NCBI GenBank assembly: GCA_964016885.1
Contig: OZ024743.1
Span: 220,162,001-220,226,000, forward strand
Direction: 5' to 3'
DNA: 64,000 nucleotides
Source: Eledone cirrhosa
Taxonomy: Eukaryota
In this document: positions 1 to 40,300 of the stretch, one piece after another
How positions within the stretch are numbered: the stretch's first letter is position 1
Layout: each line of letters begins with the position of its first letter
Program-made: the position numbers and the translations under genes
Notes under the pieces: model-generated
Told to the model about the DNA's origin: nothing
What the model saw: only the letters and a program-made list of their open reading frames with translations
The model's database searches: none

Positions 1-430
1 AACTCTTAAGAGTCAATGGCCATCCAAAATCACCGGGAGAGATGACCCCCTTAGCCTTTGTCAAGGCAGAATTCTAGGAGAAGGAAAACTCTGATATAAC
101 ACCTGCAACCCTGATGGTATCCAATGATGTTGACTTGTTCTTTTTGGTAAATATCATCTTGGTTAAGAGAGTGGGACTGGCTTTGTGCAGTGCCTTTTCT
201 CACTATAAAAGCTTCACGGCACAGGCATTGCTTTATATCTGGAGATCTCTCTGCACTTGTCGTCACATGGTACCATGGGCCCAGCACTATGTGTCAATAA
301 TTGTCACAAGTGTAGTGTTTGTACCAGAGTTTTCAAGTCACTGGCTGGACTAAAAAGTCACACTCGTTCAGCGCATCGGTAGGGGTTCACCTACAGTGGC
401 CGTACTCGAAAACGAGTTGGCAGCCACCAT
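1..430 (+). mobile_element. Non-autonomous RTE-related element, copy A (5' part lies outside the window)
   Basis: Near-identical to 6325-6766 and 39855-40300. Contains ctaggagaaggaaaactctgatataacacctg, shared with the RTE 5' UTR at 54655-54705. Ends in gtggccgtactcgaaaacgagttggcagccaccatgtatg followed by a (TATG)-like tail. Confidence 0.8.
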
Positions 431-460
431 GTATGTATATATATGTAGGTTTGTATGCAT

Positions 461-3400
461 GTATGTTCTTCTGGTTTTATAATTTCACAAAATTTTCCCA
501 ATAGAGAGAGAGTCGGTTTCTAACATAGACACAAGACTCTCTCATTGGAATTTACACAACATCAACTAGGTAGATTATGTACGTATGCATGTGTAGATAT
601 GGATGTTATTGTATGTGTGGACGTGTATGTTTTGAGTTGTATGTGTGCATGTGTATATGATCTGCATCTGTACATGTGTATATGCAGTTTTAGATGCAAA
701 ATCTTTGGAATGTTTTACATATTTTTACTGTTCCTTTAATGGATTGTACTTGTAATTTCCTAACTAGTTGTGTTCTTTCTGTTCCTGTGAAGCCTAGGTT
801 CTCAAGATTTGTATTGAGGCAGTTACTAACATACCCCAGTGCCCCAATAATCACAGGCATAAATCTGAAGGTGTAATCAGGGTGAAGTATCTGCAGATTT
901 CTCATCAGTTCTGCATAAATATTCTCCTTTTCACTAATCTTTGATATTATACTGGCATCCGCTGGGCAGCTAATTTCCACTACTGTGCATGCTTTCTTCT
1001 CCCTCTCCCATATCATATCTGGTCTGTTATGCCTGCATTTTATTGGGGGTTTTTACTGGAACATTGCACCAGTACTCTTTCATATTATGTACATGGATGC
1101 CTTCCACATTGCTGTAGCTTTTAATGTGTTTATTATCGGGGCTATATTTTTTACGAACTGCATTGTACAGGTGTTTTGGCCAGTACATCATGCCTCATAG
1201 GTAGATAGTACCGCGATGACATCTTTGGACAGCTGCTGATGACATGGGTGATACCCTCGATGTTAGTTCTGCAGAGTCTGCACTTGTTATCACATCTAGG
1301 TGTTTTGCCTGCATCCCTATCTCTTTTGTGAATCAGGTATTTCGTGTTAATCTCCTATTCTTGGATTGCAAAAGCGTATCCTTTAAAGTGGGAGCCAATA
1401 TAGCGGTTGTTGGTCCAAGATAGACTACCTTCCGTAATATATTACTCTCACTCTGGAGCTTCCTGCAACATATCCATGCATGATATTTTGCTGATAGGTA
1501 TGCAGTTTTTCATCCATGGATTCACTGCGATACTGCTGAGCGACATCCCTGGGTGTGAGTTTTTGATTATCACACAGGGAATATCTCTCGAGGAGTTCCT
1601 TCCCAACTCTCATGAACTTATCTGTTTCATGCAGATATACTTGCTCGAGAAACGGGCTCTTACGCTTCGAGGTTCGTAGATGTTGTCGGAGAGATATGAT
1701 GCGACATTCAAATGTTGTCTGGACTGATGTCAGGCCTCCCTGCTTACGTTTCAAGTAAAGGCGGTCTATGTCACTGTTGATGTGGAAGTTTCCGGTGTTG
1801 TTTAGTATTTTTCGAGTTCCAACATCAACTGTTCGGATTTCGTCTATCATCCAATTGAGTATTCCGAACGTTGGTGTTAGGACAGGCACAGCAAACACAT
1901 TGTGAGCCACTGTTTTGTTTTGCGCAGAGAGTTCCGATTACCAGATCTTTCTTAATCGGGTGTAGTATTCCCTGGTTTCGCGTTCTTTATTACAGATGCC
2001 ATTATAGGATATATTCTCATCTATCCCCAGGTATCTGTAGCAGTTCTCATCAGATATCGGTGAAACAGTTAGGCCATTGATGACAATGTTGCTAGATTGG
2101 GTTGTTGTTTTTTCTCGCTTTACAATCATGTATGAGCATTTATCTTGGCCAAACTCCATTCCTATATCCTTTGAGAACGTTGTAATCAGGTCAAGATTTT
2201 TCTTCATCCCATCCATGTTCTTGGCATAGAGTTTCAGATCGTCCACAAATAAATGATGGGTTAGGTTCGTATTTCTGTCCTCCTGTGAGCCAATGATGTA
2301 TCCCTCACATTTCTTGAGCAGAAAGTACAAGGGGTTTAATGACAAGATGAATAATATCACAGAGAGACTGTCCCCCTGAAATATACCCCTGCAATATTTT
2401 ATTTTATCAGTGAAAATAGAGTCCTCCCTCTCAGTCTTTAACCTTAGGATAGTAGCCCAAGAAGAAGACAGCCTCTCTATGGCCCTCACAATAATGTCTG
2501 GGACTTTAGCAAGTTGGAGGGCTTCTATCATCCAAGAGTGGGGAACAGAATCGAAAGCTTTCCTGTAGTCCAGCCAGACTGTAGCCATATTCCTCCTAAG
2601 TTGTCGCACCTCCGACATCGCAGTTTTATTGATTAGGAGTTGTTCAGCACATCCCCAAACCTCTTTCTTTCCAGCTGCTTGTTCATCTGTGATGATGTTA
2701 TTATTTTTACAGTGATCTTGGAGGAATAGGTTGAGGCAGGCTGTATACATCTTATACATCAAGTTCTGGCATGCAATGGGTCGGTAGTTTTTTGCCAAGT
2801 GGGTGTCTTTGTTCTTGGGGACCAGTAATGTTTGTGCTAATGTCAACCATTCTGGTATAAGTGTATCTCCCTTAAGAACTTGTTGGTAGAGGTCAGTAAG
2901 ATACCTCCGATACAATATCAGTTTTTTTGTACCAGTAGCCGACAATCATGTCTCTTCCTGGTGTTTTCTTATCTTAGAGTTTTCCTATCACAGTCTCAAG
3001 GGTACCCTCACTTATTTTGTATGTTTTTGTTGTAGTGTAGAAGCAATAGTTCTTTCGGATTTCTCTTAGCCACACTGCATCTTGGTTGAAATTCTTCTTT
3101 TCACTCCATATTTTGCTCCAAAAGGAATCTATGTCTTTCTGGGATGGGGCCTCAGTGACACTTATTATTTTGCCCTTCATATCTCTATAGACTGATGTTT
3201 GGTTTCGTCTGAATCTTTTATTAAGCACTTTTCTCTCATCTACCTTCTTCAGGTATCGGCGTTTTTCGCTAACAGCTCTCAATTCTTGTTTGAGGGTGAT
3301 CAGCTTATATTGGAGAGTTCTGGTTCTACTGTTACCAAACATCGTCTCTATTTTATTGTTCACTCTTTGTTGGTGGAGAGTGAGGTTTTTTTGTGTTTGT

Positions 3401-38729: not shown

Positions 38730-39611
38730 TCTTTTCTCTTTCTCTTAATTTCGAGTATATTTTTTTGACCGGCCACCTTCCTCGTGGCAAGGTTGTAAAA
38801 GAAAAGAAATTGTCATCCCTTGAATCGCAAGAATGTTTTGCAAATTTTGAAGGTGCCAGCTATCGCAGCCATTTGTAGACTATGAATTAGAGAGCTGCGC
38901 TTTTTGACCCCGGCCACCTTCCTTGCGTGAGAAGTATAGCCTATCCACATCACCATTGATGTTAAAGTTCCCAGTAACACTGAGAAGTTTTCGATTTCTA
39001 ACATCCATCTCACTTAGTTCTTGCAATGACCAGTTCAGCAGGCCAAATGTTGGCGTTAGAATTGGCACAGCATAAGTATTGTGGGCAATGTATTTGTTGT
39101 ATGCTGACAGTTCTGATGACCATATTTTCTTTACTCTTCTGAGGTATTCAGTTCTGGTTCTCTCCTTATTTATGGGTCCATCATATCTGACATTCTCATC
39201 CTGTCCAAGATATCTGTAGTTGTCACCTGACTGCAGAGGTTGTATTGTCAGGCCGTTCATCTCTAGATTTCTAGAGGAGGGCACAGCTCTTCCACGTTTT
39301 ACTGCCAAATATGCACACTTGGACTCACCAAATTTCATTTTGATGTCGGTTGAAAATTGTGTAATGAGGTCCAATTGTTTCTTGATGTCATTGATATTTG
39401 GCCCATACAACTTCAGGTCATCAACAAAGAAAAGATGGGAGATACTTCTGGGCCCACTTCTTTGTCCAACTTGTTTCCTGAGTAGGTAAGATAGTGGATT
39501 CAGTGAGAGAACGAAGAGTAGCACTGACAAGCTATCACCCTGAAAGATGCCCTTCTGGTAATGTATCTTATCAGTCTTAACCTGCTCCTTCTCACCTCTT
39601 GGTCAGGCGTT
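38730..39611 (-). mobile_element. R4/Dong-like LINE of a second family, 5'-truncated with a large internal deletion
   Basis: GIFQGDSLSVLLFVLSLNPL..HLFFVDDLKLY..FGESKCAY..YRYLG..DVDRLY..KEGGRG joined to the C-terminal LQMAAIAGTFKICKTFL. (CATA/TATG)n on both sides. Confidence 0.85.
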
Positions 39612-39691
39612 CATGTATGTATGTATGTATGTATGTATGTATGTATGTATGTATGTATGTATGTATGTATGTATGTATGTATGTATGTATG

Positions 39692-40300
39692 TCAGGTCAC
39701 CAGTTGGTGCTACTGGTAACATGTATCCCAGTACAACCTGTCTCATGGTCGGGTCGTTGGCGACTAAACTGGCAACCCCACCAAGATTTTTTGGTGAGGA
39801 GGCTGACTTTGGACATCCTGCAGGACTAAAAACAAAACCTGTCAAAGGGCAAAGGAGCTCTTAAGAGTCAATGGCCATCCAAAATCACCGGGAGAGATGC
39901 CCCCTTAGCCTTTGTCAAGGCAGAATTCTAGGAGAAGGAAAACTCTGATATAACACCTGCAACCCTGATGATATCCAATGATGTTGACTTGTTCTTCTTT
40001 TTGGTAAATATCATCTTGGTTAAGAGAGTGGGACTGGCTTTGTGCAGTGCCTTTGCTTACTATAAAAGCTTCACGGCACAGGCATTGCTTTATATCTGGA
40101 GATCTTTCTGCACTTGTCGTCACATGGTACCATGGGCCCAGCACTATGTGTCAATAATTGTCACAAGTGTAGTGTTTGTACCAGAGTTTTGAAGTCGCTG
40201 GCTGGACTAAAAAGTCATACTCGTTCAGCGCATTGGTAGGGGTTCTCCTACATGGATATAAAGTAGTGGCCGTACTCGAAAACGAGTTAGCAGCCACCAT
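39692..40300 (+). mobile_element. Non-autonomous RTE-related element, full-length copy E
   Basis: Colinear with 6158-6766 and has the same 5' start after (TATG)n. Confidence 0.85.

What the first reader, a model, noticed from the sequence alone, without database searches (positions are those of the whole stretch)
430..39692. R4/Dong-like LINEs sit inside (TATG)n tracts, antisense to the elements that carry those tails
Seen: three R4-like copies from two families (461-4157 -, 16579-17735 +, 38730-39611 -) have CATA repeats at both ends when read on their sense strand. The RTE and non-autonomous copies read (TATG)n on theirs. Two of the three directly neighbour RTE-system arrays. Established: RLE-type LINEs of the R4/Dong group can be sequence-specific, including for microsatellites. 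Inference: these are (CATA)n-targeting LINEs whose target is continually supplied by another retroelement's tail, an inter-element dependency.
Basis: partly seen in the sequence, partly recalled or inferred. Interest (0 to 1): 0.7.

Follow-up and report, generated by a model that had tools for sequence, protein, structure and literature searches.

The report
Two LINE clades share one microsatellite
Thousands of copies of two Dong-type jumping genes sit inside CATA repeats facing one way, likely because their own enzyme cuts that repeat; the unrelated jumping genes thought to build those repeats sit inside the same repeats facing the other way, so they are likely co-tenants rather than suppliers.

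Summary
The CATA targeting is real; the proposed dependency on RTE tails is not supported.

Two R4/Dong-type families (49% protein identity) abut (CATA)n on their sense strand. Genome-wide, 4,565 of 5,167 exact family-A 3' ends are followed by CAYA (background 1.4%). 122 of 141 5' junctions also abut CATA, including 34 of 34 full-length ones, so CATA is a target and not their own tail.

(TATG)n is not a fixed RTE tail. Of 27,281 3' ends of the non-autonomous RTE partner, 8,674 continue ATGTATGT and 8,240 continue ATATATAT. The 3' repeat type mirrors the 5' flank, and 59% of its 5' starts follow an in-phase repeat (background 2%). RTE-system neighbours are equally common on either side of R4 (24% vs 22%). 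In the window only one of three R4 copies faces an RTE-system 3' end, and that tract predates it.

Best reading: two unrelated LINE clades insert into the same pre-existing microsatellite and likely nick opposite strands. I found no paper with this target for Dong; Repbase was not searchable. The scan noted the same system earlier in other windows of this genome.

The parts
3..428 (+). 3' part of a full-length non-autonomous RTE-type element (NA, about 606 bp); it begins upstream of the window, inside a 360-bp TATG tract
429..466 (.). degenerate TATG/CATA tract between the NA 3' end and the R4-A 3' end; carries a 15-nt repeat variant found three times upstream of the NA
467..4157 (-). R4/Dong-type LINE family A, copy 1; 5'-truncated by about 430 nt, ORF broken; RT and RLE (RPD...E..CP) motifs remain
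4158..4250 (.). (TATG)23 tract at the 5' junction of R4-A copy 1 and at the 5' junction of an RTE 3' fragment
4249..7156 (+). stack of RTE-system copies, each bounded by TATG tracts on both sides: RTE 3' fragment 4249-4600, truncated RTE 4675-6066, NA 6159-6765, NA fragment 6937-7041
11105..13985 (-). truncated NA copy (11197-11612) inside a large degenerate CATA/TATG tract that holds no R4 copy
16547..16578 (.). CATA tract at the 5' junction of R4-A copy 2, preceded by the end of another repeat family (16369-16546), not by an RTE
16579..17730 (+). R4-A copy 2; 5'-truncated, internal deletion of about 210 bp, CCHC knuckle retained; followed by ACATACATATATA
38545..38729 (.). TATG/CATA tract at the 3' junction of the R4-B copy; bounded by unique DNA, no tail donor
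38730..39612 (-). R4/Dong-type LINE family B; 5'-truncated, internal deletion of about 900 bp
39613..39692 (.). (TATG)19 tract shared head-to-head by the 5' junctions of R4-B and NA
39693..40960 (+). NA full copy (39693-40298) and truncated copy (40359-40689) with TATG tracts
54515..58650 (+). long RTE-type LINE with an open 1208-aa frame (APE + RT + C2H2); 3' end cut before the terminal hairpin, no TATG end

Best explanation
Two R4/Dong-type LINE families sit in (CATA)n tracts in one fixed orientation and phase, and the RTE LINE with its non-autonomous partners sits in the same tracts, and in (TA)n, in the opposite orientation, likely because both clades insert into a pre-existing host microsatellite and nick opposite strands of it. 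Shown: junction sequences, orientation, phase, protein domains, the mirror relation of the RTE flanks. [quoted passage not shown] Inferred for RTE: the APE endonuclease nicks T/A steps, and its RNA, which ends in (AUC)n-AU, can pair only with a primer ending in AT. That is the CATA-strand nick or either strand of (TA)n, which would fix the opposite polarity. Each insertion leaves two usable tracts, so mixed stacks grow without one element interrupting another.
For: R4 3' ends: 4,565 of 5,167 exact family-A ends are followed by CAYA, background 1.4%. In held loci 54 of 55 A and 57 of 63 B ends run into CATA, background 4.7%. All 9 R4-like 3' ends in 1.2 Mb of evenly spaced DNA do. R4 5' junctions: 122 of 141 abut CATA, 34 of 34 full-length, background 5.6%. 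The 3' flank varies with the local tract after ACA (L291, L305). Polarity: 0 of 132 RTE-system 3' ends read CATA; 112 read TATG and 20 TA. RTE system: of 27,281 NA ends, 8,674 continue ATGTATGT and 8,240 ATATATAT. 6,126 of 10,337 NA 5' starts follow an in-phase (RT)5, background 2.1%. 66 of 85 NA copies have a repeat 5' flank, and 5' and 3' repeat types match (Spearman 0.63; Fisher p 1.8e-5). A 15-nt repeat variant lies on both sides of the window's first NA and nowhere in the 1.2-Mb sample or other loci. RTE-system neighbours: 32 of 136 on R4's 3' side, 26 of 120 on its 5' side, p 0.77. Domains.
Against: No empty (pre-insertion) allele was seen, so pre-existence rests on flanks. 19 of 141 R4 5' junctions lack CATA. 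12% of exact family-A ends are not followed by CAYA; I did not inspect these genome-wide. 4 of 85 NA copies (my by-eye count) have a non-repeat 5' flank yet an AT repeat at the 3' end, so some new repeat may be made. Three TA-flanked NA copies have a TATG-type 3' flank. Tracts between an R4 3' end and an RTE-system 3' end are shorter than other R4 3' tracts (median 29 vs 56 nt, p 0.02), which fits insertion into a short tail as well as later splitting. Most loci were the best-scoring matches, not random copies. No cleavage was tested. The Myb-like fold match is middling (best Z 6.4, rmsd 2.4, 70 aligned), and Foldseek gave nothing at E <= 0.001.
Confidence: 0.8

Rival explanations
1. One reading: RTE-system elements make new (TATG)n tails, and the R4 families depend on these tails as targets.
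For: 32 of 136 R4 3' tracts lead into an RTE-system 3' end, with short tracts. RTE elements are reported to add repeats at new sites in Lepidoptera (PMC2887409, passages). About 4 of 85 NA copies have non-repeat 5' flanks.
Against: There is no fixed TATG tail: 30% of NA ends continue as pure ATATATAT, and the 3' repeat mirrors the 5' flank. Neighbours are symmetric around R4. 104 of 136 R4 3' tracts have no RTE-system end beyond them. Two RTE copies with 0% divergence from their nearest copies abut R4 ends diverged 0.9% and 3.2%, which suggests R4 came first there (L249, L263). The one tail-to-tail tract in the window shares a host variant with the tract upstream of the NA.
Confidence: 0.08
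2. Weaker mutualism: the tracts begin as host repeats, but each RTE-system insertion duplicates 10-20 nt of repeat and splits the tract, so both clades multiply each other's targets over time.
For: A 20-nt duplication with an imperfect unit flanks one RTE copy (L247), and 12-nt ones flank two NA copies. 45 of 136 R4 3' tracts lead into another R4. 5 of 33 sampled tracts end at an RTE-system 3' end (my reading).
Against: Informative duplications are few (RTE 2 of 10, NA 4 of 85) and barely above shuffled pairing (p 0.03 and 0.075). Repeat slippage alone could supply the tracts. This is an add-on to the best explanation, not a dependency.
Confidence: 0.3
3. No targeting: R4 carries its own (CATA)n tail, or inserts at random and is merely retained in repeats.
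For: The R4-A 3' UTR holds CATA-like units (window 17515-17624), and 19 of 141 5' junctions lack CATA.
Against: CATA lies at 34 of 34 full-length and 88 of 107 truncated 5' junctions. Orientation and phase are fixed. (TA)n tracts are about 15 times more common (1,242 vs 80 runs), yet only 1 of 54 repeat-flanked R4 5' junctions is TA-dominated.
Confidence: 0.03

Closest known systems
Dong elements of the R4 clade (Bombyx Dong, DongAg, snail DongBg, ostracod Dong1/2)
   Same: Single frame with RT, CCHC and restriction-like endonuclease, an N-terminal SANT/Myb-like domain, and insertion into a microsatellite (PMC7998251 and PMC3812793, passages).
   Different: The reported Dong target is (TAA)n in most insects, molluscs and cnidarians; here two families use (CATA)n. 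No tree with named Dong sequences could be built.
Waldo (WaldoAg1/2, WaldoFs1)
   Same: Targets ACAY repeats, which include the ACAT repeat used here (PMC3812793, passage).
   Different: Waldo is an APE-type element (R1 clade, per the cited reference title); the present elements have an RLE, so the shared target would be convergence.
RTE-clade LINEs (Bov-B, lepidopteran RTEs) and bipartite non-autonomous RTEs
   Same: APE + RT frame, short repeat at the 3' end, T/A-step insertion signature (PMC6007223, abstract; PMC13295347, passages). Partners are built from 5' and 3' parts of an RTE (PMC5786205, passages).
   Different: RTE sites are described as not sequence-specific (PMC2887409) and Bov-B as rarely flanked by sequence like its 3' repeat (PMC13295347). 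Here most copies lie in (TATG)n or (TA)n with fixed polarity.
SaTar arrays of guayule and rice
   Same: Non-nested linear arrays of unrelated elements built by microsatellite targeting (PMC5907723, abstract).
   Different: SaTars are non-autonomous Mu-like DNA transposons in plants; here the arrays are of two retrotransposon clades with opposite orientation.
Octopus RTE and Dong-R4 LINEs
   Same: Both clades are reported as abundant or recently active in octopus genomes (PMC9115989 and PMC13282606, passages). The closest named protein here is from Argonauta hians, 65% identical.
   Different: The passages searched name no target sequence ('target' 0 times in PMC13282606; 'target site' 0 times in PMC9115989). 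Identity with those families was not tested, and supplements were not read.

Membership tests
R4/Dong clade | one frame with RT followed by CCHC knuckle and PD-(D/E) restriction-like endonuclease; no APE | tested here: met
   RT by Pfam. CRLC..H....C and RPD...E..CP motifs in family A and in B; the histidine is changed in the L271 copy of B. A profile of family A with 18 homologues matches R2 structures over positions 381-1152, E 4e-61. Pfam found no APE domain in the six R4 frames scanned.
R4/Dong clade | N-terminal SANT/Myb-like domain without zinc fingers | tested here: met
   Three-helix model, pLDDT 84.5. Top rows are mostly SANT/SLIDE/Myb/TRF domains, Z 5-6.4, a middling score. No C2H2 pattern in the first 250 aa of 19 sequences. 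Family A only; the family B N-terminus was not recovered.
R4/Dong clade | RT tree placement with named R4/Dong elements | not testable with these tools
   Homologues were almost all unnamed and no named R4/Dong reference was obtained.
R4/Dong clade | sequence-specific insertion into a multicopy target | tested here: met
Dong in the narrow sense | (TAA)n target | tested here: not met
   Junctions are (CATA)n.
R4/Dong clade | target-site duplication of fixed length | tested here: inconclusive
   Of 26 copies with both ends, the possible duplication is under 8 nt in 7 and under 13 nt in 14; pure repeats hide it in the rest.
RTE clade (partner system) | single frame with APE endonuclease and RT, short 3' repeat | tested here: met
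   1208-aa frame with PF03372 and PF00078; 1-4 ATC units at the 3' end.
RTE clade (partner system) | RT tree placement in the RTE clade | not tested
   The RTE label rests on domain layout and on my recall of RTE-like motifs; no tree was built.
RTE clade (partner system) | non-specific insertion with a repeat tail made at the new site | tested here: not met

The most novel reading that the evidence does not exclude
An RLE-type (Dong) lineage has retargeted from (TAA)n to (CATA)n, and an APE-type RTE lineage has independently become microsatellite-specific on the opposite strand of the same repeat. Together they form a self-extending niche in which every insertion splits, and perhaps lengthens, the tract and so makes landing sites for both. 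This would be a natural comparison for how a single Myb-like domain and two unrelated nucleases choose repeat and strand.
Probability: 0.55. Interest if true: 0.62.

Novelty: new variant of a known kind. Interest (0 to 1): 0.48.

Why it matters
RLE-type retrotransposons are the source of site-specific insertion tools, and what sets their target is an open question. Two families only 49% alike that share a four-letter target, unlike the (TAA)n of known Dong, give a direct test of which domain reads the repeat. A repeat-specific RTE would extend target specificity to a clade described as non-specific. In practice, CATA/TATG microsatellite markers in this animal will often have repetitive flanks, and 'RTE tail' annotations here are largely target DNA.

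Tried and rejected
Tail-supply dependency: rejected on flank mirroring, neighbour symmetry and the shared host variant.

Order of insertion from divergence: R4 was more diverged in 17 of 25 tail-to-tail pairs. Six of these loci had been picked for young RTE-system copies; without them it is 11 of 19, so the order is unresolved.

Target duplications: mostly hidden by pure repeats.

Laying four runs on copy 2 gave no empty allele, because rows at the repeats are dropped. It showed only that similar sequence lies in runs labelled as two other organisms. No RNA holder was listed.

Rfam: no match in the window. The protein atlas held neither query. Foldseek gave no significant match for the N-terminal model.

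Two primary papers (PMC309301, PMC4400214) were not held. Eight literature searches listed no paper on a CATA-specific Dong or a repeat-specific RTE. Repbase and subscription papers, including Kojima and Fujiwara 2004, could not be searched.
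Full report
Setting. The window is G000:C4:220162001-220226000 in a 3.0-Gb genome. It is 36.6% G+C and rich in simple repeats. The closest named protein to the element studied comes from the cephalopod Argonauta hians (65% identity). I did not identify the host further.

Observation. Three R4-like copies are present: family A at 467-4157 (-) and 16579-17730 (+), and family B at 38730-39612 (-). All are 5'-truncated, two carry internal deletions, and all have CATA at both ends on the sense strand, although copy 2 has only two units at its 3' end. 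The RTE fragments and the 606-bp non-autonomous element (NA) beside copies 1 and 3 read (TATG)n after their 3' ends, as reported, but they also have TATG before their 5' junctions. Only copy 1 faces an RTE-system 3' end. Copy 3 meets its array head-to-head, and copy 2 has no RTE neighbour.

What the R4-like elements are. Both families encode RT, a CCHC knuckle and an RPD...E..CP nuclease motif, and they are 49% identical in protein. The best solved relatives are R2 proteins. The family A N-terminus folds as three helices (pLDDT 84.5). Its best fold matches are mostly SANT/Myb/TRF domains, at middling scores (best Z 6.4). No N-terminal C2H2 pattern was found. This is the layout described for R4/Dong (PMC7998251, passages). 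A tree with named references was not possible.

CATA is their target. Genome-wide, 4,565 of 5,167 exact family-A 3' ends are followed by CAYA, against 1.4% of random positions. In held loci, 54 of 55 A ends and 57 of 63 B ends run into CATA. All 9 R4-like 3' ends in 120 evenly spaced 10-kb pieces do too. At 5' junctions 122 of 141 abut CATA: 34 of 34 full-length A, 42 of 58 truncated A and 46 of 49 truncated B, against a background of 5.6% (loci picked by RTE-system queries and duplicate loci were left out). Both families join in the same phase...AA|CATA. After ACA the 3' flank follows the local tract, pure TA in L305 and CA in L291, so it is not a fixed tail. (TA)n runs outnumber ACAT runs 1,242 to 80, yet they are almost never the R4 flank. 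Duplications are short or hidden.

TATG is not an RTE tail. Of 27,281 exact NA 3' ends, 8,674 continue ATGTATGT and 8,240 continue ATATATAT. Of 10,337 NA 5' starts, 6,126 have a perfect in-phase (RT)5 just upstream, against 2.1% background. Among 85 NA copies with both ends, 66 pass a strict test for a repeat 5' flank. By eye, the other 19 are 9 short or degenerate repeats, 6 internal rearrangements and 4 true non-repeat flanks. The 5' and 3' repeat types match in 56 of 66 copies (p 1.8e-5). Young RTE copies behave alike, with 1-4 ATC units as the only variable end of their own, and one shows a 20-nt duplication that includes an imperfect unit. None of 132 RTE-system 3' ends reads CATA. In the window, the 38-nt tract between the first NA and R4 copy 1 carries a 15-nt variant. 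It occurs three times upstream of that NA and nowhere in the 1.2-Mb sample or the other loci, so the NA landed inside an older host repeat.

No dependency signature. Beyond the 3' tract of 136 R4 ends lie an RTE-system 3' end (32), another R4 (45), a common SINE-like repeat (5) or other DNA (54) (3 edge cases and RTE-selected loci left out). Beyond the 5' tract of 120, an RTE-system 5' end lies in 26: 25 by script plus window copy 3, which the script missed. The two shares do not differ (p 0.77). Insertion into fresh tails would favour the 3' side. Results against my reading: tail-to-tail tracts are short (median 29 vs 56 nt, p 0.02), and divergence does not settle the order (11 of 19 unbiased pairs have the older-looking R4).

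Mechanism. Shown: junctions, polarity, phase and domains. Inferred from the established target-primed mechanism: an element followed by CATA must have been primed from a nick on the TATG strand, and one followed by ATGT or ATAT from a nick on the CATA or TA strand. The RTE polarity follows if its nuclease cuts T/A steps, as in the published RTE signature (PMC6007223, abstract; PMC13295347, passages), and its RNA end pairs with a primer ending in AT. Each insertion leaves two tracts, so ordered mixed stacks accumulate.

Comparison and novelty. Known Dong elements target (TAA)n, and ACAY repeats are the target of the APE-type Waldo elements (PMC3812793 and PMC7998251, passages). RTE sites are described as non-specific (PMC2887409, passages). 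PMC4640811 (passages) lists R4 among the mostly target-specific RLE clades. Octopus papers report both clades without a target in the passages searched (PMC9115989, PMC13282606). Microsatellite-built arrays are known for plant DNA transposons (PMC5907723, abstract). Eight searches found no report of this target. Repbase, where such targets are often noted (my recall), was out of reach, and no supplements were read. Earlier notes of this scan on other windows of the same genome reach the same reading; I stated mine before looking, and they are not independent evidence.

Verdict: a new variant of a known kind, interest 0.48.

Noticed in passing
window 15489-15664, 16369-16546, 25730-25946; L064, L078, L121, L128: Another repeat family ends in ...TTTCTGTTTAC(C/G)TTT and is followed by TACA(T/C)AC and a CATA, CA or TA repeat in 7 of 7 copies. 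It holds a CTGATGA...CGAAAC stretch that recalls Penelope-like ends (recalled; no Rfam hit). It may be a third user or maker of these tracts, on the CATA strand.
   Followed up: partly
window 23424-24578, 31471-32835, 43477, 49973-51794: A very common SINE-like repeat (112 starts in the 1.2-Mb sample plus the window) preceded by ATAAT/AATAAT; it often interrupts R4 copies and their junctions.
   Followed up: partly
window 54869-58495: The RTE family looks very young: the 40 best genome matches to its 3' ORF end are about 100% identical, and the window copy keeps an open 1208-aa frame.
   Followed up: partly
window 54563-54866; L043: At least three non-autonomous RTE-type families share 5' and 3' parts. 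One matches the 5' UTR (85%) and the last 23 nt of the window's RTE. The autonomous partner of the 606-bp NA was not found.
   Followed up: partly
L169:2406-3010: A third R4-like family (69% to family B) also ends in ...GAA|CATATA.
   Followed up: no
L271: A family B copy with a 912-aa open frame sits inside a multi-kilobase CATA/TA satellite.
   Followed up: partly
window 58852-64000: A second, different APE-type LINE (two frames; 1057 aa open at the window edge) begins right after the RTE copy.
   Followed up: no
window 26262-28757: An 829-bp inverted repeat, 98.8% identical, encloses a decayed GIY-YIG-like frame (27263-27679). Further Penelope-like frames lie at 9563-10500, 20065-21498 and 43737-45122.
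   Followed up: no
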